DNA from: Eledone cirrhosa
Taxonomy: Eukaryota
NCBI GenBank assembly: GCA_964016885.1
Contig: OZ024756.1
Location: forward strand, 26,102,001-26,166,000
Direction: 5' to 3'
Length of the DNA stretch: 64,000 nt
Of this stretch, positions 26,584 through 59,733 are shown one piece after another. The position numbers were made by a program, and so were the translations under genes. Below the pieces are notes generated by a model. The model was not told the origin of the DNA, did no database searches, and saw nothing but the letters and a program-made list of their open reading frames with translations. How positions within the stretch are numbered: position 1 is the stretch's first letter; each line of letters opens with the position of its first letter.

Positions 26584-29500
26584 CAGGGGTGTGCAACATA
26601 TTCCATTGGTAGGCCACTTTTGAACATTGGAATAACTATTAGGGTCATTAATATTTATTAAGCACTATTCCAAAGATTCGCCACAATTTCTTTCCATAAC
26701 ATGGAACCGGGAAATTATAACACACATAACCCTATCAGTGAAACCCTTTAGTATAGGATAACTGGGAAATTATAACACACATACCCCTATCAGTGAAACC
26801 CTTTATTATAGGTCAACTGGGAAATTATAACACACATAACCCTATCAGTGAAACCCTTTAGTATAGGTTAACTGGGAAATTATAACACACATAACCCTAT
26901 CAGTGAAACCCTTTATTATAGGTCAACTGGGAAATTATAACACACATAACCCTATCAGTGAAACCCTTTATTATAGGTTAACTGGGAAATTATAACACAC
27001 ATAACCCTACCAGTGAAACCCTTTATTATAGGTCAACTGGGAAATTATAACACACATAACCCTATCAGTGAAACCCTTTAGTATAGGACAACTGGGAAAT
27101 TATAACACACATAACCCTATCAGTGAAACCCTTTAGTATAGGTCAACTGGGAAATTATAACACACATAACCCTATCAGTGAAACCCTTTAGTATAGGTCA
27201 ACTGGGAAATTATAACACACATAACCCTATCAGTGAAACCCTTTAGTATAGGTCAACTGGGAAATTATAACACACATAACCCTATCAGTGAAACCCTTTA
27301 GTATAGGTCAACTGGGAAATTATAACACACATAACCCTATCAGTGAAACCCTTTATTATAGGTTAACTGGGAAATTATAACACACATAACCCTACCAGTG
27401 AAACCCTTTATTATAGGTCAACTGGGAAATTATAACACACATAACCCTATCAGTGAAACCCTTTAGTATAGGACAACTGGGAAATTATAACACACATAAC
27501 CCTATCAGTGAAACCCTTTAGTATAGGTCAACTGGGAAATTATAACACACATAACCCTATCAGTGAAACCCTTTAGTATAGGTCAACTGGGAAATTATAA
27601 CACACATAACCCTATCAGTGAAACCCTTTATTATAGGTCAACTGGGAAATTATAACACACATAACCCTATCAGTGAAACCCTTTAGTATAGGACAACTGG
27701 GAAATTATAACACACATAACCCTATCAGTGAAACCCTTTAGTATAGGACAACTGGGAAATTATAACACACATAACCCTATCAGTGAAACCCTTTAGTATA
27801 GGTCAACTGGGAAATTATAACACACATAACCCTATCAGTGAAACCCTTTAGTATAGGTCAACTGGGAAATTATAACACACATAACCCTATCAGTGAAACC
27901 CTTTAGTATAGGTCAACTGGGAAATTATAACACACATAACCCTATCAGTGAAACCCTTTAGTATAGGTTAACTGGGAAATTATAACACACATAACCCTAT
28001 CAGTGAAACCCTTTAGTATAGGTCAACTGGGAAATTATAACACACATAACCCTATCAGTGAAACCCTTTAGTATAGGTCAACTGGGAAATTATAACACAC
28101 ATAACCCTATCAGTGAAACCCTTTATTATAGGTCAACTGGGAAATTATAACACACATAACCCTATCAGTGAAACCCTTTAGTATAGGTCAACTGGGAAAT
28201 TATAACACACATAACCCTATCAGTGAAACCCTTTAGTATAGGACAACTGGGAAATTATAACACACATAACCCTATCAGTGAAACCCTTTAGTATAGGTTA
28301 ACTGGGAAATTATAACACACATAACCCTATCAGTGAAACCCTTTAGTATAGGTCAACTGGGAAATTATAACACACATAACCCTATCAGTGAAACCCTTTA
28401 GTATAGGTCAACTGGGAAATTATAACACACATAACCCTATCAGTGAAAGCCTTTAGTATAGGTCAACTGGGAAATTATAACACACATAACCCTATCAGTG
28501 AAGGCCTTTAGTATAGGTCAACTGGGAAATTATAACACACATAACCCTATCAGTGAAACCCTTTAGTATAGGTTAACTGGGAAATTATAACACACATAAC
28601 CCTATCAGTGAAACCCTTTAGTATAGGTTAACTGGGAAATTATAACACACATAACCCTATCAGTGAAACCCTTTAGTATAGGTTAACTGGGAAATTATAA
28701 CACACATAACCCTATCAGTGAAACCCTTTAGTATAGGTTAACTGGGAAATTATAACACACATAACCCTATCAGTGAAACCCTTTAGTATAGGTCAACTGG
28801 GGAATTATAACACACATAACCCTATCAGTGAAACCCTTTATTATAGGTCAACTGGGAAATTATAACACACATAACCCTATCAGTGAAACCCTTTAGTATA
28901 GGTCAACTGGGAAATTATAACACACATAACCCTATCAGTGAAACCCTTTAGTATAGGTCAACTGGGAAATTATAACACACATAACCCTATCAGTGAAACC
29001 CTTTAGTATAGGTCAACTGGGAAATTATAACACACATAACCCTATCAGTGAAACCCTTTAGTATAGGTTAACTGGGAAATTATAACACACATAACCCTAT
29101 CAGTGAAACCCTTTAGTATAGGTCAACTGGGAAATTATAACACACATAACCCTATCAGTGAAACCCTTTAGTATAGGTCAACTGGGAAATTATAACACAC
29201 ATAACCCTATCAGTGAAACCCTTTAGTATAGGTCAACTGGGAAATTATAACACACATAACCCTATCAGTGAAACCCTTTAGTATAGGTCAACTGGGAAAT
29301 TATAACACACATAACCCTATCAGTGAAACCCTTTATTATAGGTCAACTGGGAAATTATAACACACATAACCCTATCAGTGAAACCCTTTAGTATAGGTCA
29401 ACTGGGAAATTATAACACACATAACCCTATCAGTGAAACCCTTTAGTATAGGTCAACTGGGAAATTATAACACACATAACCCTATCAGTGAAACCCTTTA

Positions 29501-29613
29501 GTATAGGTCAACTAACAGAAAATTGCATTACGGTTATGAAAAAAATTCTAACTAAACCTACAAGGTAAAAATTAAAAACGGTCATCGCAGGCCACTCTGA
29601 CTGGTTTGGCGGG
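26584..29613 (+). mobile_element. Probable hAT-type non-autonomous element hosting the 55-bp array
   Basis: Begins CAGGGGTGTGCAAC...GGCCAC and ends ...CGCAGGCCAC...TTTGGCGGG, resembling hAT MITE subterminal motifs; right TIR not seen. Confidence 0.45.
26706..29513. repeat. 55-bp satellite array, ~51 copies
   Basis: Unit ACTGGGAAATTATAACACACATAACCCTATCAGTGAAACCCTTTAGTATAGGTCA; exact 55-bp register holds from 26761 to 29511. Confidence 0.98.
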
Positions 29614-30075
29614 AAGAAGAAGACAACAATGATGATGGTGGAGAAGAAGAAGAAGAAGAAGAAGATGACGAAGAAGAAGAAGAAGAAGAAGAAGAAGAAG
29701 AAGATAAAACGACGACTATGGACTATGAGGAAGAAGAAAAAGAAGAAGGAGGAGGAGGTGACTACATATTATCTCTCAGGGGAATTAGACTTATTAGAAA
29801 TTAGTAGTCAGACTCATGATTTACATAATTCTGTGATTAATTACATTTACATGTAATTAATCACACAGTTGCTTCTGACAGGACCTGCTGGAAGGAATGT
29901 TTGAGGGCTCTGCTCCCACGACCCTCCCAGGATTAAGTGGACAAAGAAGAAAAAGAGAAGTGTGATTAATTATACTTTATATATTATGATAGTCATTAGT
30001 GAAAGTAATTAATTTACTTTATATATTATGACAGTCAATAGAGAAAGTAATTAATTATATTTTATATATTATGAT

Positions 30076-30980
30076 TTAACTTTGGTGGGAGTCCCACAAC
30101 TTCATGTCTTCATCAAAGCTATCCTCCACTTTACTCTCAGAGCTATCTTCCACACTCTGGGAGCTATCTTCCACACTCTGGGAGCTATCTTCCACACTCT
30201 GGGAGCTATCTTCCACACTCTGGGAGCTATCTTCGACACTATCCTCAAAGCCATCTTCCACAATCTCAGAGCTATCCTCCACTCCATCCTCAGAGCTATC
30301 CTTAACTCCATCCTCAGAGCTTTCCTCCACTCCACCCTCAGGGCTTTCCTCCACTCCATCCTCAGAGCTTTCCTCCACTCCATCCTCAGAGCTATCCTTA
30401 ACTCCATCCTCAGAGCTTTCCTCCACACTATCCTCAGAGCTATCTTCCCCTATATCTTCGGAGCCATCTTCCACAATCTCAGGGCTATCCTCCACACTAT
30501 CTTCAGAGCTATCCTCCACTCCATCCTCAGAGCCTTCCTCCACTCCATCCTCAGAGCTATCCTTAACTCCATCCTGAGAGCTATCCTCTCCTTTGTCAGA
30601 GCTATCGTCCACTCTCATCTCAAAGCTACCTCCCACTCTCATCTCAAAGCTACCTCCCACTCTCCTCTTGGAGCTGTCCTCCACTCTACTCCCAAGGCTG
30701 TCCATTACTCTCACGTCACTGCTTTCCTGCACCACTCTCACATCACTCATGTCCTCCACTACCCTCACATCACTGTTATCCTTCTCCACCACTCTCACGT
30801 CTCCTATATCTCCAGAGTCCAATATGTTTTCATTCTTCAGAGAACCATTTCCAGCTTGTTTCAAATTTCCCTCTAGATTTTCAGTCAAGTCAGTCTTTAT
30901 TTTAGGGATTTCTAATATTTCAGAAATATTTAAAATCCATGGTGCTGCCTCGAACTCTTCAAGACTTATTTTTCCATCTC
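30076..30980 (-). CDS. Secreted EF-hand/acidic-repeat protein, last coding exon (end of EF-hand 2 plus D/E/S-rich tail)
   Basis: Acceptor tttcatcacttttag|GA. The phase-1 join rebuilds DADKN-R-DGKISLEEFEAAPW, a canonical 12-residue EF loop, in frame with ORF 30076..30888 to TAA. Confidence 0.9.
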
Positions 30981-31199
30981 CTAAAAGTGATGAAAGAATA
31001 AAATTAGTTTAAATAAAGTTTATGGCCTCAGTAGAAAGTGTTTTTAGTTAAAATCCAGGACAACACCATTATGTAGCAAAACAAGGCCTACATCAACAGC
31101 TGCCAAATTTTACAACTTGATGTTATACAACAGGTTTATATTTACAATAGAATACCTGCAATCAATATGTTATTAAGTTACAATACAAAACCATATGTA

Positions 31200-31380
31200 G
31201 TGTCTTTTATTATAAATATGGTAATGAAAAGGTTATAGACATAGGCAGTGTCTTTCATTAGAAATATGGTAGTGAAAGGATTAAAGCCATAGGCAGTGTC
31301 TTTCATTAGAAATATGGTAATGAAAGGGTTAATGATAGAGGCAGTGTCTTTCATTAGAAATATGATAATGAAAGGGTTAA
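31200..31380. repeat. ~46-bp tandem repeat (4x) of a TTAA-MITE terminus
   Basis: 'gtgtctttcattagaaatatggtaatgaaagggttaa'-like unit repeated; the same terminus occurs singly near 15815 and 45410. Confidence 0.7.
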
Positions 31381-31429
31381 GGACTTGTATTTTTCTTTTA
31401 GTTGATAAATGTTGCTAACTGTAACTTAC

Positions 31430-31640
31430 TGTTTTTATCAGCATCTTTAAAAGCTGCTTTAGCATTTTGTCTGGCGCCAGTTGTGTTGATGAGTTCCTGC
31501 AGGCTGATCAATTTATCATTATCCTGGCTGTCATAACGTGAAAAATTCTCTGGAAGAGGAACTGGCCGAAACTCTTCAGAGTTGTCTTTGGAGCTGATCA
31601 GCGGCTGTTTTAGGGATTCAAGATTCTTTATATTTTCAAC
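31430..31640 (-). CDS. Secreted EF-hand/acidic-repeat protein, middle coding exon (EF-hand 1, start of EF-hand 2)
   Basis: Acceptor tttttttcccctcag|, donor A|gtaagt, 211 bp; VENIKNLESLKQPLISSKDNSEEFRPVPLPENFSRYDSQDNDKLISLQELINTTGARQNAKAAFKDADKN. Confidence 0.92.
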
Positions 31641-32945
31641 CTGAGGGGAAAAAAAGACCAACATATGAATCAAGGGGATGTTTTTTTAATTTATTTTCTT
31701 TATAAGTTAAGGTTAGGGTTAGGTTTAAGAGGAACAATGACAACAATACCTACAACAAATTGGTATAGGAAATCTTCCCTCTCCCCCTCCCAGTTTCCAC
31801 CCAATACAGTCTCTAATTAATAAAGAACGTTAGATGGAGGGAACAATAGTACCCTTTGTAGGGTGTCTGTGACTGGTGGAAGCTAAAGAAAGATGGAAGG
31901 ATGGATTCTTGAACTGCAGACTTGGCCTTTGCAAAATGGTGGAATCTGCTAATGGCACCCAAGGACCAGATAGAAGTGCTAAACTGGGTGACAGATTGAG
32001 TCTACCACTCAAAGACCACGTGGTGGTGTTAAACTAGGTGACAGATTAAGTCTACCACCCAAGGACCAGGTGGTGGTTGTAAACTGGATAACAGATTAAA
32101 TTTACCATCCAAGGACTAGGTGAGAGATTAAGTCTCCCACCTGAGTAGCTACAGTGGAGTTTGAACTCAGAAGATAAAGAGCCAGAAGTAATACCACAAG
32201 TCATCTAGTTTGTTGCTCTAACAACACCACCAGTCTACTGCCTTCCACTCCTACTTTATTTAACAACACCAAAACTTGACATCAGTGAGAAACATTGCAA
32301 AAAATACTGCAAGGAATATTGTGCTACATTAAGGCCAATTAGGTTGCAGACCTGAGAGAAGGACATAACTGATTCTTAAAGGATCACAGTTTTATACAAA
32401 TTTATATAATTCAATTAAATACATAATAATTTCCTGCAATCAATAAAGACATTACTAAACAACTTTGCCAAAAAGGAGGCTTGTCAGCTTGCCAAACTGT
32501 AAGTTGAAATTATTTTATTTGGAAGAATGTAGCGCATAACTGGAAGAAGTGGGTACACATTATAGAGCTACCCAAGGGCACTAAATCCCCGGGTGTACAC
32601 TATAGGGTTACCCAAAGGCACTAAATACCCAAGTCCACATTATAGAGCTAGTCTGGAGCACTAAATACCCAGGTCAACATTATAGAGTTAGTCTAAATAT
32701 CCAGGCAGCAGCTATGCCTACACTCAAATGACTCTGCCATTTCACCACTTAAAGAAACAAAGTTACCTATAAGTGTAAACATTCAGTTGACTTATGAAAC
32801 ATTGGGGGGGGGGGGGGGGGGTGAAATTTGAAAATATAGTCTCCACAATACAGATAACTATAAATAATAGTCGTATAAATTGAGTAAATTACTCTGGGAG
32901 ACGGAAAAAAAGGCAAATAGAAATACCTATCTTTAAGTTACTTAC

Positions 32946-33065
32946 CTTCAAAAATTCCATTTTATTATTTCTGTTGTGTGCTGGAAGCTGAAGAGATCGC
33001 TGCCAAGATAGACTTATCCATAACAGACAACAGAAACACAGCAGAACAGAATGATGCCTTACCAT
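32946..33065 (-). CDS. Secreted EF-hand/acidic-repeat protein, first coding exon (signal peptide)
   Basis: MVRHHSVLLCFCCLLWISLSWQRSLQLPAHNRNNKMEFLK has a basic n-region plus hydrophobic core. Donor AAG|gtaagt, phase 0. An acceptor (ttaatttcag) 6 nt before the ATG implies an upstream non-coding exon. Confidence 0.85.
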
Positions 33066-33329
33066 TTTCAACTGAAATTAACAGAACATGATCAGAATTT
33101 CTTTCATATAATTCTGAAAATAGAGACAATCCATGCCAATGTGGAGAGCAGACATGAAATAATGATAATGTTGTATGTACTATTGTCTGTGAAGTAGAAA
33201 TAATGTTGTTGTATGTACTATGGTGTGTACTACATGTAAAACCTACATTCTTAGCTAAACTCCCCAAGATCCCATTACATCTCTTGTGTACACATAGTTT
33301 GCATTTGGGACAGAGGATGCAATTTCTAC

Positions 33330-33862
33330 CTTTCCTACATACTGAGTAAGGCTATTTTCCTGAGGAGATCAGGGTTCTGTTTTCTCTTCTACTTACTAGG
33401 AACTTGGTCTTTGTCAGGTTCACTTTAAAACCCCTTGTTTCTAGGCCCTGCTTCCATGTTTGGAATTTCTTCTATAGTTCTACCATAGACTCCACTATGA
33501 GTGTAAGATCATCTGTGTACAGGAGTTTTCATGGGCAGCCAGTCTTAAACTCTTTTGTTATAGTCTGCAGTACAATAGTAAATAGGAGAGGGCTAAGAAC
33601 AGAGCTCTGGTGGAAGCCAACCTTTACGCTAAATTTCTTGCTATAGTGGCTTGCACAGCCTTCACAAGCCATTCATCTTCTCCTAGTTTTCTAAGAGCCC
33701 ACCAGATCATGGCACAGGACACTCTGTCAAAAGCTTTTTCCAGATCAACAAATGTCAGGTGGAGTGGCTTACTTTTAGCCAAGAAGAGAGCATCTGTGGT
33801 TCTTTTGCTTGGTACAAATCCAAATTGCATCTCATCTAGATTTACCTGGTCCCTAATCAACA
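33330..33862 (-). mobile_element. RTE LINE reverse-transcriptase fragment
   Basis: LDEMQFGFVPSKRTTDALF...FVDLEKAFDRVS..IWWALRKLG. Confidence 0.92.
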
Positions 33863-34700
33863 TGTACACAGAATTATATTAGAACATATGTATACACAGG
33901 GTTATATTAGTACATATAAATTGTGTACACAGAATTATATTAGTACATATAAATTGTGTACACAGAATTATATTAATACATATAAAATGTGTACACAGAA
34001 TTATATTAATACATATAAAATGTGTACACAGAATTATATTAATACATATAAATTGTGTACACAGAATTATATTAGTACATATAAATTGTGTACACAGAAT
34101 TATATTAATACATATAAAATGTGTACACAGAATTATATTAATACATATAAAATGTGTACACAGAATTATATTAGTACATATAAATTGTGTACACAGAATT
34201 ATATTAATACATATAAAATGTGTACACAGAATTATATTAATACATATAAAATGTGTACACAGAATTATATTAATACATATAAATTGTGTACACAGAATTA
34301 TATTAATACTTATAAAATGTGTACACAGAATTATATTAATACATATAAATTGTGTACACAGAATTATATTAATACATATAAAATGTGTACACAGTTATAT
34401 TAGTACATATAAATTGTGTACACAGAATTATATTAATACATATAAAATGTGTACACAGAATTATATTAGTACATATAAAATGTGTACACAGTTATATTAG
34501 TACATATAAATTGTGTACACAGAATTATATTAATACATATAAAATGTGTACACAGAATTATATTAGTACATATAAAATGTGTACACAGAATTATATTAGT
34601 ACATATAAAATGTGTACACAGTTATATTAGTATATATAAAATGTGTACACAGTTATATTAGTACATATAAAATGTGTACACAGTTATATTAGTACATATG
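33862..34700. repeat. 33-bp minisatellite (~25 copies, with 31-bp variants)
   Basis: Unit TGTGTACACAGAATTATATTA(A/G)TACATATAAA(A/T). Confidence 0.97.
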
Positions 34701-40024: not shown

Positions 40025-41012
40025 TATGAGCAATGTACAGCACATTCAACTGCCCAGACTATCCTCATAACAGGACCACCCAGCTCCCAAGATACGGTTC
40101 TGCTATGAACAAGGTACTGTGGTCAACTGGCAAGACTTTCCTCATAACAAGACCACCCAGCTCCCAAAATACGGTTCTGCTATGAACAAGGTACTGTGGT
40201 CAACTGGCCAGACTATCCTCATAACAGGACCACCCAGCTCCCAAAATACGGTACTGCTATGAACAAGGTACTGTGGTCAACTGGCAAGACTTTCCTCATA
40301 ACAAGACCACCCAGCTCCCAAAATACGGTTCTGCTATGATCAAGGTACTGTGGTCAACTGGCCAGACTATCCTCATAACAGGACCACCCAGCTCCCAAAA
40401 TACGGTACTGCTATGAACAAGGTACTGTGGTCAACTGGCAAGACTTTCCTCATAACAAGACCACCCAGCTCCCAAAATACGGTTCTGCTATGAACAAGGT
40501 ACTGTGGTCAACTGGCAAGACTTTCCTCATAACAAGACCACCCAGCTCCCAAGATACGGTTCTGCTATGAACAAGGTACTGTGGTCAACTGGCAAGACTT
40601 TCCTCATAACAAGACCACCCAGCTCCCAAGATATGGTACTGCTATGAACAAGGTACTGTAGTCAACTGGCCAGACTATCCTCATAACAGGACCACCCAGC
40701 TCCCAAAATACGGTACTGCTATGAACAAGGTACTGTGGTCAACTGGCAAGACTTTCCTCATAACAAGACCACCCAGCTCCCAAGATACGGTTCTGCTATG
40801 AACAAGGTACTGTGGTCAACTGGCCAGACTATCCTCATAACAAGACCACCCAGCTCCCAAGATACGGTTCTGCTATGAACAAGGTACTGTGGTCAACTGG
40901 CCAGACTATCCTCATAACAGGACCACCCAGCTCCCAAGATATGGTTCTGCTATGAACAAGGTACTGTGGTCAACTAGCCAGACCCTGCTCATAAGGGGAC
41001 CACCCAGTTCCA
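40025..41012. repeat. 77-bp minisatellite (~12 copies) inside a SINE/RTE tail
   Basis: 'cagctcccaa' at 40081, 40158, 40235 and onward; flanked on both sides by 'aaacatggttggtgttaggaagggcatccagc'. Confidence 0.93.
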
Positions 41013-51408: not shown

Positions 51409-53155
51409 CTGTAGGAAGAGAAGTGGGTGGGTAGTAGCTTGATGAAGTTTGTAAGCACAGTGACACACAGACAGAGGGACAGTAGAGGAGGTGGGGAGGG
51501 TGGGGCCACAGTAGATGTTATAACCTTTATATACTTTTACTGGTTTCAGTCATTTGACTGTGGCGATGCTGGGGCACCGTCTCAAAGAGAATTAGTCGTT
51601 CATATGTATCTTCTCAGTTTTATATTTGAGAAAAAAGATATGATGGCCATGATCGTAAACCCAGAAGTCTCAAACACGTGGCCTGCAAACTATGGCCTGT
51701 GGCAGAACAATTTTCGTGACTAAGGAAATTTTGAAATGGAAAATTTGTCCCCCTACATTTTGTTTTAATTCACATATCCCACTTATTATTATATGTGTAT
51801 TCATTTTGATGTAAAAATAAATAGCAGCCTATTGTAGATTAGCATTATAACTGATAAAAACCTCATAATGTCCACTAGTCAGTGAAGACAAACAGATTTA
51901 TATAGAGAATAATTGGTAACTCAGAGACGCCATCTGCATGGAAAAACAACTATAGTTAAATTTTCTATTCAGATGTTGTTGATCCACTGTTGGATAAAAA
52001 AACTCAACATACCATTGCCAGATTATTTAACCCTTGTCTGGCTAAAATTCTCTCACCTCTTTCTGTTCAAACCAGCCGTAACTGGCCACTCATACTGATG
52101 TTAAGGTATTGTTCTCAAAATCTCATAGATATGATATTATGTGAGATAATAAGTCTTTACCGCAAAAATACAATAGTATATATAGAGTAATGTACATGCT
52201 AAAGGGTTAAGCTTGTTGTAGCCATACCTGTCCACATGGGCCAGTTATGTGGGGTCCCCATGTAGTAAGGTCATCAGCACTTGAACAGTTGTGTGTTGGG
52301 GAAGGGGTGTCCATGTAGTTGGGATGGGTGTGGAACAGGGATCGGGGAATAACATATTTACACCAACATAAATGTGAAGTTGTGGCAATTATGGACAATG
52401 CCAAACTGTGGGACAGTGAACTCAATATCATAAAATGAAATAAAATAAAACAAAAGTGTGTAGAAATTACATTAGCAGCAATTGTAGAATGTGATACACA
52501 GTGAGAATGACTAGCAAGGGTTAATGTGAAAGCCAGCTACAAAATGCCAGGAATATAATACATGTTTTCAATCATTTTAATATCATTTTTATTGTTTAAC
52601 CCTTTTGTGATAGTAATTTGAATGAAATACACTCTATTTCAATTAATTATAAAGAATTTTAAGGGATTTATCAAAATTATTAATTATTTCATTACTAAGA
52701 TAGTAACTTAACATATGGTTCTTATATAAAATTGTTTGAAGATTTAAATTTAAATAGGAACCCTTTAAAATGGGTGGTTTAATTTAAATAGGAACCCTTT
52801 AAAATGGGTGGTTTAATTAGAACCACAGCTAGTTTTGACTGGGTTGGTATCAAAAAAAGGTTAAGTTAGGAAAGGAAGGGTAGTGCCCATGACCCTTTCA
52901 GGACCTCCAAGATTGGTAGGGGGAAAGGAAGGAGGAGTATCCTTAAATTGGAGGCCTGACTTAGACACTTGCAACAGAGTGGATTCCACTAAAAGTATCC
53001 AAGACCTGGGTGGTGGTATTATGTTTACCACCCCAGAACCTGGTGGTGATGTTAAACTGGGTGACAGATTATGCTTACCACCCAAGGACCGGGTCATCAT
53101 CATCATCATCATCTTCATTTAACGTCCATCTTCCACTCTAGTATGGGTTAGACAG

Positions 53156-55600
53156 GGTGTTGGTGTTAAACCAGGTGACAGATTAAGTCTACCACTCCAG
53201 AGCTGGGTAGCAGTATTATGTCTACCACCCCAGAACTGGGTGTTGGTGTTAAACCTAGTGATAGATTAAATCTACTATCTCAGAGTTGGGTAGCAGTATT
53301 ATGTCTACCACCCCAGAACTAGGCGTTGGTGTTAAACCTAGTGATAGATTAGGTCTACCACTCCAGAGCTGGGTAGCAGTATTATGTCTACCACCCTAGA
53401 ACTGGGTGTTGGTGTTAAACCTAGTGATAGATTAGGTCTACCACTCCAGAGCTGGGTAGCAGTATTATGTCTACCACCCTAGAACTAGGCGTTGGTGTTA
53501 AACCTAGTGATAGATTAAATCTACTATCTCAGAGCTGGGTAGCAGTATTATGTCTACCACCCTAGAACTAGGCGTTGGTGTTAAACCTAGTGATAGATTA
53601 AATCTACTATCTCAGAGCTGGGTAGCAGTATTATGTCTACCACCCTAGAACTAGGTGTTGGTGTTAAACCTAGTGATAGATTAAATCTACTATCTCAGAG
53701 CTGGGTAGCAGTATTATGTCTACCACCCCAGAACTGGGTGTTGGTGTTAAACCTAGTGATAGATTAAATCTACTATCTCAGAGCTGGGTAGCAGTATTAT
53801 GTCTACCACCCCAGAACTGGGTGTTGGTGTTAAACCTAGTGATAGATTAAATCTACTATCTCAGAGCTGGGTAGCAGTATTATGTCTACCACCCCAGAAC
53901 TGGGTGTTGGTGTTAAACCTAGTGATAGATTAAATCTACTATCTCAGAGCTGGGTAGCAGTATTATGTCTACCACCCCAGAACTGGGCGTTGGTGTTAAA
54001 CCTAGTGATAGATTAAATCTACTATCTCAGAGCTGGGTAGCAGTATTATGTCTACCACCCCAGAACTGGGTGTTGGTGTTAAACCTAGTGATAGATTAAA
54101 TCTACTATCTCAGAGCTGGGTAGCAGTATTATGTCTACCACCCCAGAACTGGGTGTTGGTGTTAAACCTAGTGATAGATTAAATCTACTATCTCAGAGCT
54201 GGGTAGCAGTATTATGTCTACCACCCCAGAACTGGGCGTTGGTGTTAAACCTAGTGATAGATTAAATCTACTATCTCAGAGCTGGGTAGCAGTATTATGT
54301 CTACCACCCCAGAACTGGGTGTTGGTGTTAAACCTAGTGATAGATTAAATCTACTATCTCAGAGCTGGGTAGCAGTATTATGTCTACCACCCCAGAACTG
54401 GGTGTTGGTGTTAAACCTAGTGATAGATTAAATCTACTATCTCAGAGCTGGGTAGCAGTATTATGTCTACCACCCCAGAACTGGGTGTTGGTGTTAAACC
54501 TAGTGATAGATTAAATCTACTATCTCAGAGCTGGGTAGCAGTATTATGTCTACCACCCCAGAACTGGGCGTTGGTGTTAAACCTAGTGATAGATTAAATC
54601 TACTATCTCAGAGCTGGGTAGCAGTATTATGTCTACCACCCCAGAACTGGGTGTTGGTGTTAAACCTAGTGATAGATTAAATCTACTATCTCAGAGCTGG
54701 GTAGCAGTATTATGTCTACCACCCCAGAACTGGGTGTTGGTGTTAAACCTAGTGATAGATTAAATCTACTATCTCAGAGCTGGGTAGCAGTATTATGTCT
54801 ACCACCCCAGAACTGGGCGTTGGTGTTAAACCTAGTGATAGATTAAATCTACTATCTCAGAGCTGGGTAGCAGTATTATGTCTACCACCCCAGAACTGGG
54901 TGTTGGTGTTAAACCTAGTGATAGATTAAATCTACTATCTCAGAGCTGGGTAGCAGTATTATGTCTACCACCCCAGAACTGGGTGTTGGTGTTAAACCTA
55001 GTGATAGATTAAATCTACTATCTCAGAGCTGGGTAGCAGTATTATGTCTACCACCCCAGAACTGGGCGTTGGTGTTAAACCTAGTGATAGATTAAATCTA
55101 CTATCTCAGAGCTGGGTAGCAGTATTATGTCTACCACCCCAGAACTGGGTGTTGGTGTTAAACCTAGTGATAGATTAAATCTACTATCTCAGAGCTGGGT
55201 AGCAGTATTATGTCTACCACCCCAGAACTGGGTGTTGGTGTTAAACCTAGTGATAGATTAAATCTACTATCTCAGAGCTGGGTAGCAGTATTATGTCTAC
55301 CACCCCAGAACTAGGTGTTGGTGTTAAACCTAGTGATAGATTAGGTCTACCACTCCAGAGCTGGGTAGCAGTATTATGTCTACCACCCTAGAACTAGGCG
55401 TTGGTGTTAAACCTAGTGATAGATTAAATCTACTATCTCAGAGCTGGGTAGCAGTATTATGTCTACCACCCCAGAACTAGGTGTTGGTGTTAAACCTAGT
55501 GATAGATTAGGTCTACCACTCCAGAGCTGGGTAGCAGTATTATGTCTACCACCCTAGAACTAGGCGTTGGTGTTAAACCTAGTGATAGATTAAATCTACT
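53156..55600. repeat. 83-bp minisatellite (~29 copies)
   Basis: Unit GGGTGTTGGTGTTAAACCTAGTGATAGATTAAATCTACTATCTCAGAGCTGGGTAGCAGTATTATGTCTACCACCCCAGAACT; 54151 to 54981 is 10 x 83. Confidence 0.98.
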
Positions 55601-56738
55601 ACCCAAGTAGGCCTCAGTAAGATGTACATTCAGAACTGAAAGGGCTAGGACAAATAATGGTTTCTGATTTAGGCACAAGGCCAACAGTTTTAGGGGAGGG
55701 GAAGTCGATTAAATCAATCTCAGTCCATTACTGGTGCTTTATTTTATCAATCTCGTAAGGATGAAAGGCAAAGCTAACCTCAGTGGGATTTGAACTCAGA
55801 ACATAAAGGGCCGTAACTCTGTGCTGCAAAACATGTTGTCCAACGCTTTACCAATACTGCCAAGCTAAGACAAATAATACAAAATATTTTGTCTGATGCT
55901 TTAAAAATTTCATGGTTCCACCACCACTCTGGTCTGGTACTATATTTTACTGACCCCAAAAAGGATGAAAGGCAAGGTTGACTTTGATAGGATTTGAACT
56001 CAGAGTGCAAAGTGTTTGAACAAATACTATATGGCAGTTTGTTCTGTGCTCTAATCACTTTGCCAATATGTTTATTCACGTGACTAAAACAAGCTCACAC
56101 ATGGACAAAAAAAAAAGAAAAAAAGCCATGAATTAAAAACATGTTTTCAATCAGTGAAGCTAGGACATGCTAAAGGGTGTGAGGGAGTCAACAGCAGCAG
56201 AAGAAAGTCAATGAATGGAGAACTTACTAGAATGTTGAGGTTAAAAAGAAAGAGAAGGAAGCAAAACTAGAAAAACCTCATTCAAAACAATATTGTACAT
56301 ATTCAATTAATCAACATATTGTACATATTAAATCCTTATTGAAGATATTGATCTAAAATAGTGAACACAAACAAAACAGCTTCAAACCAAGCCTAGAGTG
56401 AGAAACTCTGTGGAAACCTGTCAGATGAATATTGTACCTGTAGTTCAAAGGTCCAGCTTTGGTCTTGCACTGTACCATGCTGATTCTGTCTGAGAAGTAC
56501 ATTAAGGGTGTATGTGACTGTGGAATACTCAGCCTCGTATACATTCATTTAAAAAGTAAGCTGTTCTGTTAATTGTAAAACTGGAAGACTCATCATCCAA
56601 TATTATCTCTCCTCCCCTTACAAGATAATAAGTTGTGATTTGAAGGAAATTTGGCTGCTGTTTCTAGTAGATTGAGAGACTCCATTGCTGGCTTGTTTAG
56701 TTAAGTCTAAAGGTAACTGTTCCATAAGTTATGGCCAC

Positions 56739-56831: not shown

Positions 56832-56899
56832 CTAAAATGAAGGCGACATTGTTGTTAATTAATGTTTTGATTTCATCAGTCTGGTATTTCTCTACCAAC

Positions 56900-59733
56900 A
56901 ATCTGTGACTATATCTCACCAGTATTCCAGTACCATCAATATGTGACTATATCCCACCATCCCAGTATTCCAGTACCATCAATATGTGACTATATCCCAC
57001 CATCCCAGTATTCCAGTACCAACAATATGTGACTATATCCCACCATCCCAGTATTCCAGTACCAACAATATGTGACTATATCCCACCATCCCAGTATTCC
57101 AGTACCAACAATGTGTGACTATATCCCACCATCCCAGTATTCCAGTACCAACAATGTGTGACTATATCCCACCATCCCAGTATTCCAGTACCAACAATAT
57201 GTGACTATATCCCACCATCCCAGTATTCCAGTACCATCAATATGTGACTATATCCCACCATCCCAGTATTCCAGTACCAACAATATGTGACTATATCCCA
57301 CCATCCCAGTATTCCAGTACCAACAATATGTGACTATATCCCACCATCCCAGTATTCCAGTACCAACAATATGTGACTATATCCCACCATCCCAGTACCA
57401 ACAATGTGTGACTATATCCCACCATCCCAGTATTCCAGTACCAACAATATGTGACTATATCCCACCATCCCAGTACCAACAATGTGTGACTATATCCCAC
57501 CATCCCAGTATTCCAGTACCAACAATATGTGACTATATCCCACCATCCCAGTATTCCAGTACCATCAATATGTGACTATATCCCACCATCCCAGTATTCC
57601 AGTACCAACAATGTGTGACTATATCCCACCATCCCAGTATTCCAGTACCAACAATGTGTGACTATATCCCACCATCCCAGTACCAACAATGTGTGACTAT
57701 ATCCCACCATCCCAGTATTCCAGTACCATCAATATGTGACTATATCCCACCATCCCAGTATTCCAGTACCAACAATATGAGACTATATCCCACCATCCCA
57801 GTATTCCAGTACCAACAATGTGTGACTATATCCCACCATCCCAGTATTCCAGTACCATCAATATGTGACTATATCCCACCATCCCAGTATTCCAGTACCA
57901 TCAATATGTGACTATATCCCACCATCCCAGTATTCCAGTACCATCAATATGTGACTATATCTCCCCATCCCAGTACCATCAATATGTGACTATATCTCCC
58001 CATCCCAGTATTCCAGTACCAACAATATGTGACTATATCCCACCATCCCAGTATTCCAGTACCAACAATGTGTGACTATATCCCACCATCCCAGTATTCC
58101 AGTACCAACAATGTGTGACTATATCCCACCATCCCAGTATTCCAGTACCAACAATGTGTGACTATATCCCACCATCCCACCATCCCAGTATTCCAGTACC
58201 AACAATATGAGACTATATCCCACCATCCCAGTATTCCAGTACCAACAATGTGTGACTATATCCCACCATCCCAGTATTCCAGTACCAACAATGTGTGACT
58301 ATATCCCACCATCCCAGTATTCCAGTACCAACAATGTGTGACTATATCCCACCATCCCAGTATTCCAGTACCAACAATGTGACTATATCCCACCATACCA
58401 GTATCACAGTACCAACAATATGTGACTATATCCCACCATCCCAGTATTCCAGTACCAACAATGTGTGACTATATCCCACCATCCCAGTATTCCAGTACCA
58501 ACAATGTGTGACTATATCTCCCCATCCCAGTATTCCAGTACCAACAATATGAGACTATATCCCACCATCCCAGTATTCCAGTACCAACAATGTGTGACTA
58601 TATCCCACCATCCCAGTATTCCAGTACCAACAATGTGTGACTATATCCCACCATCCCAGTATTCCAGTACCATCAATGTGTGACTATATCTCCCCATCCC
58701 AGTATTCCAGTACCAACAATATGTGACTATATCCCACCATCCCAGTATTCCAGTACCAACAATGTGTGACTATATCCCACCATCCCAGTATTCCAGTACC
58801 AACAATGTGTGACTATATCCCACCATCCCAGTATTCCAGTACCAACAATGTGTGACTATATCTCCCCATCCCAGTATTCCAGTACCAACAATATGTGACT
58901 ATATCCCACCATCCCAGTATTCCAGTACCAACAATGTGTGACTATATCCCACCATCCCAGTATTCCAGTACCAACAATGTGTGACTATATCCCACCATCC
59001 CAGTATTCCAGTACCAACAATATGTGACTATATCCCACCATCCCAGTACTCCAGTACCAACAATATGTGACTATATCCCACCATCCCAGTATTCCAGTAC
59101 CAACAATGTGTGACTATATCCCACCATCCCAGTATTCCAGTACCAACAATATGTGACTATATCCCACCATCCCAGTACTCCAGTACCAACAATATGTGAC
59201 TATATCCCACCATCCCAGTATTCCAGTACCAACAATGTGTGACTATATCCCACCATCCCAGTATTCCAGTACCAACAATGTGTGACTATATCCCACCATC
59301 CCAGTATTCCAGTACCAACAATATGTGACTATATCCCACCATCCCAGTATTCCAGTACCAACAATGTGTGACTATATCCCACCATCCCAGTATTCCAGTA
59401 CCAACAATGTGTGACTATATCCCACCATCCCAGTATTCCAGTACCAACAATGTGTGACTATATCCCACCATCCCAGTATTCCAGTACCAACAATGTGTGA
59501 CTATATCCCACCATCCCAGTATTCCAGTACCAACAATGTGTGACTATATCTCCCCATCCCAGTATACCAGTACCAACAATATGTGACTATATCCCACCAT
59601 CCCAGTACCATCAATATGTGACTATATCTCCCCATCCCAGTATTCCAGTACCAACAATGTGTGACTATATCTCCCCATCCCAGTATTCCAGTACCAACAA
59701 TGTGTGACTATATCCCACCATCCCAGTGCCAAC
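56900..59733. repeat. 43-bp minisatellite (~65 copies, with 35-bp variants) in the IDH3G intron
   Basis: Unit ATATGTGACTATATCCCACCATCCCAGTATTCCAGTACCAACA. Confidence 0.98.

What the first reader, a model, noticed from the sequence alone, without database searches (positions are those of the whole stretch)
30076..33071. Unannotated secreted EF-hand + acidic Ser/Asp/Glu-repeat protein: candidate biomineral matrix phosphoprotein
Seen: three exons with canonical, phase-compatible splice sites (33065-32946, 31640-31430, 30980-30076) give ~411 aa. It has a signal-peptide-like N-terminus, an EF-hand pair (loop 2, DKNRDGKISLEE, exists only after splicing; loop 1, DSQDNDKLISLQE, is one residue long) and ~170 aa of VEDSSEDG / VEDSSQS repeats. 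Known: small secreted two-EF-hand proteins and acidic low-complexity proteins are recurrent mollusc shell-matrix components, and DSS/SSE-rich phosphoproteins (vertebrate DSPP, DMP1) control mineral nucleation. Inference: a lineage-specific fusion of both modules. In a cephalopod-like genome it could act in statolith, shell-remnant or eggcase mineralisation, or in secretory Ca2+ buffering. The ORF track shows it only as three unrelated pieces.
Basis: partly seen in the sequence, partly recalled or inferred. Interest (0 to 1): 0.82.

Follow-up and report, generated by a model that had tools for sequence, protein, structure and literature searches.

The report
Octopus secreted calcium-binding acidic-tail protein
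This is a real, spliced octopus gene whose protein joins a small EF-hand domain from a family shared across molluscs and worms to a long acidic, serine-rich tail; it is likely secreted and phosphorylated and may help shape a mineral such as the balance-organ stone, but that role is untested and close counterparts are already listed in databases.

Summary
The gene is real. The three exons give an open 411-aa frame, and a contig from an RNA-like run crosses both predicted junctions with no mismatch. It is not unannotated: O. bimaculoides, O. vulgaris and O. sinensis orthologues are in NCBI as 'dentin sialophosphoprotein(-like)', a name that reflects composition only (no RGD, no DSS-DSS runs, a folded EF-hand pair). 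The 68-aa EF-hand core belongs to an unnamed family of leader-bearing proteins in nemerteans, an annelid, a brachiopod, abalone and bivalves; 12 of 14 non-Octopus members already have an acidic flank. So it is not a lineage-specific fusion. What is octopod-specific among the proteins seen is the regular E-D-S-S-E tail, rich in Fam20C-type S-x-E sites. By eye, peptides of the limpet shell protein EFCB1 carry the family signature. Best reading: a secreted Ca2+-binding phosphoprotein that tunes a calcium mineral, most plausibly the statolith (0.4). A mucus/granule or luminal Ca2+ buffer is nearly as likely. No tissue data could be obtained. Interest 0.42.

The parts
33066..33073 (-). Splice acceptor (AG at 33073-33072) and 6 nt of 5' UTR; a further non-coding exon lies upstream of 34000, not located
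   Evidence: record 20 ends at 33072 with 30 letters left over
32946..33065 (-). Coding exon 1, residues 1-40: predicted signal peptide (about 1-20, inferred cleavage after Ser20) and basic linker
   Evidence: 16 of 24 identical to O. bimaculoides in residues 1-24
31641..32945 (-). Intron, GT-AG, phase 0
31430..31640 (-). Coding exon 2, residues 41-110: family motif F-x-P-V-P-x-P-x-x-F-x-x-Y-D, EF-hand 1, short linker, start of EF loop 2
31494..31532 (-). EF-hand loop 1 (residues 77-89), 13 residues, non-canonical
   Evidence: 13-residue form in 10 of 16 relatives tabulated, 12-residue form in 6 of 16
30981..31429 (-). Intron, GT-AG, phase 1, splits EF loop 2; holds a 48-nt repeat that is highly repeated in the genome
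30955..30980 (-). Second part of canonical EF loop 2 (residues 111-119; residues 108-110 lie at 31439-31431)
   Evidence: Pfam EF-hand_1 above cut-off in orthologues
30076..30980 (-). Coding exon 3, residues 111-411 and stop: end of EF-hand 2, A-P-W motif, spacer and acidic tail in one open frame
30079..30936 (-). Acidic, predicted disordered tail (residues 126-411): 54% S+D+E, net charge -74, 21 S-x-E
   Evidence: low pLDDT over most of the orthologue's tail
30113..30688 (-). 24-nt (8-residue) tandem repeat with E-D-S-S-E/Q core; 21-nt variant at 30133-30282
29877..30075 (-). 3' UTR, at least this far
   Evidence: record 18 of run X3 spans 29877-30169

Best explanation
The locus is a spliced octopod gene for a 411-residue protein with a hydrophobic leader, an EF-hand pair and a 286-residue acidic Ser-rich tail, which is likely secreted, likely phosphorylated at its S-x-E sites and would then act as a Ca2+-binding polyanion that likely tunes a calcium carbonate deposit, most plausibly the statolith. 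Shown: gene structure, splicing, composition, orthologues, family membership of the core. Predicted: EF-hand pair fold; disorder of most of the tail. Inferred: export through the secretory pathway; Golgi phosphorylation by a Fam20C-type kinase (up to 27 of 72 serines); tight Ca2+ binding at canonical EF loop 2 and perhaps at the 13-residue loop 1; many weak Ca2+ sites on the tail that hold back or steer nucleation and crystal growth, as fish Starmaker does in otoliths. The statolith is chosen because it is the clear CaCO3 biomineral of a shell-less octopod; that choice is inference only.
For: Splicing and frame. Core conserved at 53 of 67 residues against O. bimaculoides, tail at 57 of 130 aligned residues, yet tail composition kept (49-54% S+D+E). 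S-x-E in the tail: 21 against 10.4 +/- 2.7 in shuffles (0 of 2000 reached it); O. bimaculoides 18 (2 of 2000); O. vulgaris 15 (25 of 2000). Different 8-residue units in this species and in Octopus both keep E-D-S-S-E. Leader in 16 of 19 family proteins, no other hydrophobic segment, no KDEL/HDEL end. AlphaFold2 model of the orthologue: pLDDT 85-95 over residues 71-120, EF-hand pair fold (best Z 8.4, rmsd 2.1 over 57 residues). Limpet shell-matrix protein EFCB1/B3A0Q5 peptides match 12 of 15 conserved core columns by eye. Molluscan Fam20C exists and affects nacre (PMC5824888); 16 of 46 Lottia shell phosphosites fit S-x-E-like motifs (PMC4094399). Starmaker precedent (PMC4260845).
Against: No tissue, protein-level or mineral assay evidence. 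The family occurs in shell-less nemerteans and Owenia, so the core is not a mineral marker. The Lingula member XP_013404774 is absent from a Lingula shell proteome supplement whose two EF-hand proteins are others. The closest non-Octopus hit P0030 has a Glu-rich tail with no S-x-E enrichment (3 against 3.4 shuffled), although any cephalopod would have statoliths if that is what it is. The shuffle test overstates significance because tandem copies are not independent. EFCB1 is only about 0.05% of the Lottia shell proteome and the match was not scored. EF-hand plus acidic tail also describes luminal Ca2+ buffers.
Confidence: 0.4

Rival explanations
1. General secretory Ca2+-binding protein of mucus, gland or dense-core granules: the EF pair and acidic tail would bind Ca2+ to condense granule contents or cross-link a secreted gel, with no mineral role.
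For: Family is shared with mucus-rich, shell-less nemerteans and a tube worm; acidic flanks in 12 of 14 non-Octopus members; the P0030 cluster was assembled in 33 contigs over 10 member sequences of public runs, more than one would expect of a gene confined to a tiny organ (weak: the samples are not known).
Against: Does not by itself explain the octopod S-x-E repeat. The name and accession of the O. sinensis orthologue were not found in the supplements of the O. vulgaris skin-mucus and ink proteomes (weak, since acidic repeats yield few tryptic peptides and databases differ).
Confidence: 0.28
2. Luminal ER/sarcoplasmic-reticulum Ca2+ buffer or store (working like calsequestrin or histidine-rich Ca-binding protein; both recalled): it would enter the secretory pathway but be retained.
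For: Leader, EF-hands, high-capacity acidic tail; a conserved C-terminal W-x-S-H-x-S in all four octopod proteins could be a sorting signal; two relatives end in E-E-E-L and K-E-S-L.
Against: No KDEL/HDEL in any of 19 proteins; fast tail turnover suits an extracellular protein; EFCB1 is found in shell matrix.
Confidence: 0.12
3. Phosphate/calcium store or anti-calcification agent in eggs, egg capsule, spermatophore, blood or kidney (working like phosvitin, casein or osteopontin; recalled).
For: Dense S-S-E clusters (18 [DE]-S-S) resemble phosphoserine cluster sequences that sequester amorphous calcium salts.
Against: No expression data; no homology to those proteins was found in the searches.
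Confidence: 0.12
4. The core is the functional part and the tail is a tolerated minisatellite expansion with no special role.
For: Genome is very rich in tandem repeats (110 rows); repeat units differ between octopod lineages; two relatives have almost no tail (P0130, P0138).
Against: Tail of 248-286 residues is kept open, acidic and S-x-E-rich in four octopod species, with conserved spacer and C-terminal motif.
Confidence: 0.08

Closest known systems
Octopus 'dentin sialophosphoprotein(-like)' models XP_014771710.1 (O. bimaculoides), CAI9737196.1 (O. vulgaris), XP_036366803.1 (O. sinensis)
   Same: Orthologues: same leader, EF pair (67-69% identity over exon 2), spacer, acidic 8-residue repeats and C-terminal motif.
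   Different: Repeat unit is V-E-D-S-S-E-D-G here and Q-M/L-E-D-S-S/F-E-S there; tail 286 against 248-252 residues. The names are database labels; no study of these proteins was found.
Unnamed lophotrochozoan leader + EF-hand-pair family (Lineus XP_064632684, Tubulanus XP_074645780, Owenia CAH1791922 and CAH1790718, Lingula XP_013404774, Haliotis XP_046578364 and XP_067684800, Mytilus CAC5413487, Mercenaria XP_045165624)
   Same: 68-residue core from F-x-P-V-P-x-P to E-F-x-x-A-P-W with a short inter-EF linker; leader; mostly acidic flanks. A profile built without cephalopod-like rows scores the window protein 92.6 bits against at most 44.7 for other EF-hand hits held.
   Different: Their flanks are D/E-rich but irregular and Ser-poor (0-3 S-x-E in the C-tail against 15-21 in octopods).
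Lottia gigantea shell-matrix protein EFCB1 (B3A0Q5)
   Same: Four contiguous peptides show P-x-P-x-x-F-x-x-Y-D, two EF loops, an E-L-x-x-x-I-G linker and E-F-x-x-G-P-aromatic, followed by acidic sequence (by eye).
   Different: Linker three residues longer, first F and P of the motif missing, canonical loop 1, Cys-containing extra region; no long S-x-E repeat seen in the peptides. Not scored.
Fish Starmaker / Starmaker-like and vertebrate SIBLINGs (DSPP, DMP1)
   Same: Acidic, disordered, Ser-rich, predicted phosphorylated, secreted; Starmaker controls otolith size, shape and polymorph (PMC4260845).
   Different: Analogy only: no RGD, no DSS-DSS runs, and a folded EF-hand pair that those proteins lack (lack recalled).
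SPARC/BM-40 extracellular calcium-binding domain
   Same: Secreted EF-hand pair whose first loop has a one-residue insertion and still binds Ca2+ (PMC7763218); four relatives have a Pro in that part of the loop.
   Different: No follistatin domain, no Cys in the mature octopod protein, no His-Pro in the octopod loop.

Membership tests
SIBLING / DSPP | Signal peptide and many S-x-E phosphorylation motifs | tested here: met
   Hydropathy; 21 S-x-E in the tail. SignalP not run.
SIBLING / DSPP | RGD integrin motif (feature recalled) | tested here: not met
   Absent in window protein, P0003, P0001, P0030
SIBLING / DSPP | Long D-S-S triplet runs of phosphophoryn (recalled) | tested here: not met
   0 D-S-S-D-S-S in 4 of 4 proteins tested
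SIBLING / DSPP | All coding introns phase 0; no folded domain (recalled) | tested here: not met
   Second coding intron is phase 1; EF-hand pair predicted
EF-hand pair proteins | Canonical 12-residue loop between helices | tested here: met
   Loop 2 fits the pattern; Pfam PF00036 33-35 bits, cut-off 25.4, in orthologues; the single window exons alone stay below cut-off
EF-hand pair proteins | Paired helix-loop-helix fold | tested here: met
   Model of orthologue P0003, residues 67-129 match EF-hand pairs
EF-hand pair proteins | Ca2+ binding at loop 1 | not testable with these tools
   13-residue loop with Lys in place of the usual Gly
Lophotrochozoan leader + EF-pair (APW) family defined here | Core profile match well above generic EF-hand proteins | tested here: met
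   92.6 bits with a profile lacking octopod and P0030 rows; non-members at most 44.7 among 163 stored proteins
Lottia EFCB1-type shell EF-hand proteins | Sequence homology to EFCB1 | tested here: inconclusive
   12 of 15 conserved columns by eye, about ten of them generic EF-hand positions; no score
Shell / statolith matrix proteins | Occluded in the mineral and expressed in the mineralising epithelium | not testable with these tools
   No tissue record for run X3; no statolith proteome found
SPARC/BM-40 family | Follistatin-like domain and disulfides | tested here: not met
   No Cys after the leader; no such Pfam hit
SPARC/BM-40 family | EC-domain fold | tested here: inconclusive
   Top 50 rows are other EF-hand pairs; an unlisted family is not excluded

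The most novel reading that the evidence does not exclude
Octopods took an ancient lophotrochozoan secreted EF-hand protein, the same family that limpets put into their shell, and grew on it a DSPP/Starmaker-like phosphoserine repeat to make the main polymorph-controlling matrix protein of the statolith: a cephalopod Starmaker, convergent with fish otolith proteins, and a first molecular handle on whether statoliths and shells share a toolkit.
Probability: 0.2. Interest if true: 0.72.

Novelty: new variant of a known kind. Interest (0 to 1): 0.42.

Why it matters
Cephalopod statoliths are aragonite with a small protein fraction, and very few studies have characterised those proteins (PMC6597576). 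A review proposes statoliths as a stepping-stone to spiralian skeletons (PMC10658180). A named, conserved, single candidate with a Starmaker-like tail and a core related to a limpet shell protein makes both questions testable by in situ hybridisation, statolith proteomics and knock-out. Even without a mineral role, the work outlines an unnamed secreted EF-hand family across five lophotrochozoan groups and shows that the database name 'dentin sialophosphoprotein-like' is misleading. Without tissue data it remains one of many acidic low-complexity candidates.

Tried and rejected
No whole genome is held for this window, so paralogues and synteny could not be examined; within the window the core profile hits only this gene. 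No RNA holder was listed by record; X3 is of unrecorded kind and is read as RNA from its spliced contig. A processed retrocopy was considered and judged unlikely: 0 mismatches over 684 nt, an extra 5' piece, and no spliced joint among the rows listed for the three DNA-like runs (tables were cut: 168 joints and 81,575 pieces not shown). Word-indexed searches for shorter relatives (0 of 4 candidates) and with the family alignment (4 of 8000 candidates, all already known) added nothing. ESM Atlas gave only generic EF-hand clusters. PDB sequence searches gave calmodulin-type hits only; Foldseek had no match at E <= 0.001; SPARC was not among the listed fold matches. The 71-column tree is mostly unresolved (2 of 15 inner branches starred) and does not place P0030 beside the octopod proteins, so its orthology rests only on the best single-stretch score (76.9 bits) and a shared linker with P0003 (48 against 23.3 +/- 4.9, 1 of 300 shuffles; not distinctive with the window's own linker). 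The upstream exon could not be located by tblastn with the N-terminal extensions of P0001/P0002. The Pfam Yae1_N hit on exon 3 (below cut-off) was rejected as a low-complexity match. Literature: no paper holds the six accessions or the six motifs in a relevant context (4 papers, all unrelated); 'octopus' with 'dentin sialophosphoprotein' gave 8 unrelated papers; EFCB1 with shell/Lottia gave 1 paper. The Argonaut eggcase preprint's main text has no 'EF-hand' or 'dentin'; its supplements could not be seen and may bear on the eggcase question. The octopus brain atlas removed statocysts and its readable supplements do not name the gene (one file unreadable). The O. bimaculoides genome paper was not held. 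Earlier scan findings: none. No complex prediction was run.
Full report
Observation. The minus-strand exons 33065-32946, 31640-31430 and 30980-30076 have GT-AG borders, phases 0 and 1, and join to 1236 nt, 411 residues and a stop. Residues 6-19 are hydrophobic (11-residue Kyte-Doolittle maximum 3.03), no later 19-residue window exceeds 0.75, and the C-terminus is not KDEL-like. EF loop 2 (residues 108-119) is cut by the second intron and fits a PROSITE-like pattern; loop 1 (77-89) has 13 residues. The 286 residues after the A-P-W motif are 54% Ser+Asp+Glu with net charge -74, built on a 24-nt repeat of 24.9 copies at 30113-30688.

Transcription. No run was on record as RNA, but 1 of the 4 runs laid, X3, holds a 714-nt contig that lies on 30635-30979, 31429-31638 and 32944-33072 without a mismatch; these 684 letters equal the predicted spliced sequence. 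It reaches residue 225, the start of the repeats. Other X3 contigs cover 30397-30564 and 29877-30169, the latter across the stop codon into the 3' UTR; no single contig spans the repeat, as expected for unitigs. Since the second half of EF loop 2 and the tail lie in one exon and one frame, the tail needs no further splice. X1, X2 and X4 contigs run across exon-intron borders and behave as DNA. The last 30 letters of the spliced contig lie outside 29500-34000 and the laid part stops at an AG (33073-33072), so there is a non-coding 5' exon further up, behind a LINE remnant (RVT_1 fragment at 33627-33878, below cut-off). All four runs come from one study, the kind and tissue of X3 are not on record, and the tables were cut.

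Orthologues. Exon 2 finds 3 of 68 candidates, all Octopus: O. vulgaris CAI9737196.1, O. sinensis XP_036366803.1 and O. bimaculoides XP_014771710.1 with three more accessions of the same sequence, named 'dentin sialophosphoprotein(-like)'. Against O. bimaculoides the identity is 16 of 24 in the leader, 11 of 36 in the linker, 53 of 67 in the core, 22 of 43 in the spacer and 57 of 130 in the repeats. The window is thus an octopod more distant than those species are from each other (89% between O. bimaculoides and O. vulgaris); this is inference. The repeat unit differs, but both lineages keep an 8-residue period around E-D-S-S-E and a terminal W-x-S-H-x-S. The gene is therefore annotated elsewhere, under a name that reflects composition: there is no RGD and no D-S-S-D-S-S in 4 of 4 proteins tested.

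The family. A search of 1.84 billion representatives with the O. bimaculoides core gave 1573 hits at E <= 0.001, mostly multi-EF proteins; 14 of the 150 listed, besides the query, matched the whole core in one or two stretches and were taken further. Named ones come from Lineus, Tubulanus, Owenia (two), Lingula, Haliotis (two species), Mytilus and Mercenaria; five are unnamed. They share a 68-residue core with 7 invariant and 8 nearly invariant columns. A profile built without the octopod and P0030 rows scores the window protein 92.6 bits and P0030 86.1, against at most 44.7 for the other stored hits. A hydrophobic leader is present in 16 of 19 proteins; the three exceptions are the O. vulgaris model with an N-terminal extension, the O. 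sinensis model with another first exon, and a Haliotis model shorter at its N-terminus. In 12 of 14 non-Octopus members tabulated, a flank has at least 25% Asp+Glu (P0142 dropped when the script stopped); the Tubulanus protein has a 117-residue tail of 45% Asp+Glu. So leader, EF pair and acidic flank are an old architecture, not a lineage-specific fusion. What is special to the octopods is the regular Ser-rich tail: S-x-E 21, 18 and 15 in the window, O. bimaculoides and O. vulgaris (0, 2 and 25 of 2000 shuffles reached these), against 3 and 1 in P0030 and Tubulanus, which are not enriched. Tandem copies are not independent, so these counts overstate significance. P0030 (421 aa, unnamed, 10 member sequences on 33 contigs of 2-3 kb) may be the orthologue in another cephalopod, but the tree does not show it.

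Structure. AlphaFold2 on the O. bimaculoides orthologue with 18 sequences gives pLDDT 85-95 over residues 71-120, a leader helix at 5-20 and a mostly low-confidence tail (mean 57, pTM 0.30; a helix at 245-278 has pLDDT about 52-66). Residues 67-129 match ordinary EF-hand pairs (best Z 8.4, rmsd 2.1, 57 residues; the next rows are tied within 1 Z); a shared fold shows no function. Loop 1 has 13 residues in 10 of 16 relatives and 12 in 6 of 16. SPARC's first EF loop also has a one-residue insertion and binds Ca2+ (PMC7763218, passages), so the long loop need not be dead, but the octopod loop lacks SPARC's His-Pro and the usual Gly, and its binding is open.

Link to minerals. In the peptide table of the Lottia shell proteome (PMC4094399: passages, first part of section 9, searches of supplements 2 and 3), four peptides of EFCB1/B3A0Q5 that are contiguous by their flanking residues show, by eye, 12 of the 15 conserved core columns, including the Pro before EF1 and the G-P-aromatic end; the first Phe and Pro are missing, one Phe is Tyr, and the linker is three residues longer. 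About ten of these columns are generic EF-hand positions and the match was not scored, so this is a lead. EFCB1 is about 0.05% of that proteome. Against a general shell role, the Lingula member is absent from a Lingula shell proteome whose two EF-hand proteins are others (PMC13425148: passages and supplement searches), and nemerteans and Owenia make no shell (recalled). Fam20C acts in pearl-oyster nacre (PMC5824888, passages), and 16 of 46 Lottia phosphosites fit S-x-E-like motifs, although that paper notes that the kinase rule is unproven in invertebrates. Starmaker, an acidic disordered protein, controls otolith size, shape and polymorph, more strongly when phosphorylated (PMC4260845, passages). 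Cephalopod statoliths are aragonite with little-studied matrix proteins (PMC6597576, passages); statoliths have been proposed as a stepping-stone to skeletons (PMC10658180, passages). The skin-mucus and ink proteomes of O. vulgaris do not name the orthologue (PMC10138644, PMC10142993: passages and supplement searches). The Argonaut eggcase preprint (passages), the octopus brain atlas (PMC9712504: passages and readable supplements) and the Perna shell proteome (PMC6641155, passages; it lists one unnamed signal-peptide EF-hand protein) gave nothing decisive.

Mechanism. Shown: gene, splicing, composition, orthology, family. Predicted: EF-pair fold and tail disorder. Inferred: secretion; phosphorylation of up to 27 of 72 serines under the S-x-E/pS rule; tight Ca2+ binding at loop 2 and many weak sites on the tail; and, from these, delay or steering of CaCO3 nucleation and growth. 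I put 0.4 on a mineral-tuning role, with the statolith the most plausible site in a shell-less octopod, 0.28 on a mucus or granule Ca2+ role, 0.12 on a luminal buffer, 0.12 on a storage or anti-calcification role and 0.08 on a functionless tail. An eggcase-specific role is unlikely because benthic Octopus species have the gene.

Verdict. It works like a SIBLING or Starmaker by composition but is not a member of that family; it is a member of an unnamed lophotrochozoan secreted EF-hand family that probably includes limpet EFCB1, with an octopod phosphoserine-type tail. No study of it was found in the held library, which lacks most subscription papers. New variant of a known kind; interest 0.42.

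Noticed in passing
P0002 (O. sinensis XP_036366803.1), residues 1-about 125: This database model lacks the leader exon and has an unrelated N-terminus that looks like LINE-derived sequence (recalled resemblance); from the equivalent of exon 2 on it is nearly identical to the O. vulgaris protein, so it is probably mis-modelled and hides the signal peptide.
   Followed up: partly
window 33280-33880, minus strand: Decayed LINE fragment (RVT_1 E 2e-4 and PHD-like Cys motif, both below cut-off) in the 5' UTR intron, very highly repeated in the DNA runs.
   Followed up: partly
window 30079-30096, minus strand: The C-terminal W-x-S-H-x-S is kept in all four octopod proteins although the repeats before it have turned over; unexplained.
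   Followed up: no
window 26705-29513, 53155-55601, 56893-59727, 40046-41011, 33863-34699: Long, homogeneous minisatellite arrays (55, 83, 43, 77 and 33 nt units; 93-98% matches); the 55-nt array begins about 560 nt below the stop codon.
   Followed up: no
whole window: No other convincing protein-coding exon was seen among open frames of 95 residues or more; the window is mostly repeats and transposon remnants, and holds no paralogue of the core.
   Followed up: partly
P0089 (Lingula XP_013404774.1): Named 'calcineurin subunit B type 2' in NCBI but has a leader, one EF pair and the family core; the name is probably wrong.
   Followed up: partly
P0022 and P0106 (Lineus, Tubulanus): Both nemertean members share a His-rich N-terminal segment after the leader and a short conserved block before the core, suggesting metal binding or adhesion in that lineage.
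   Followed up: no
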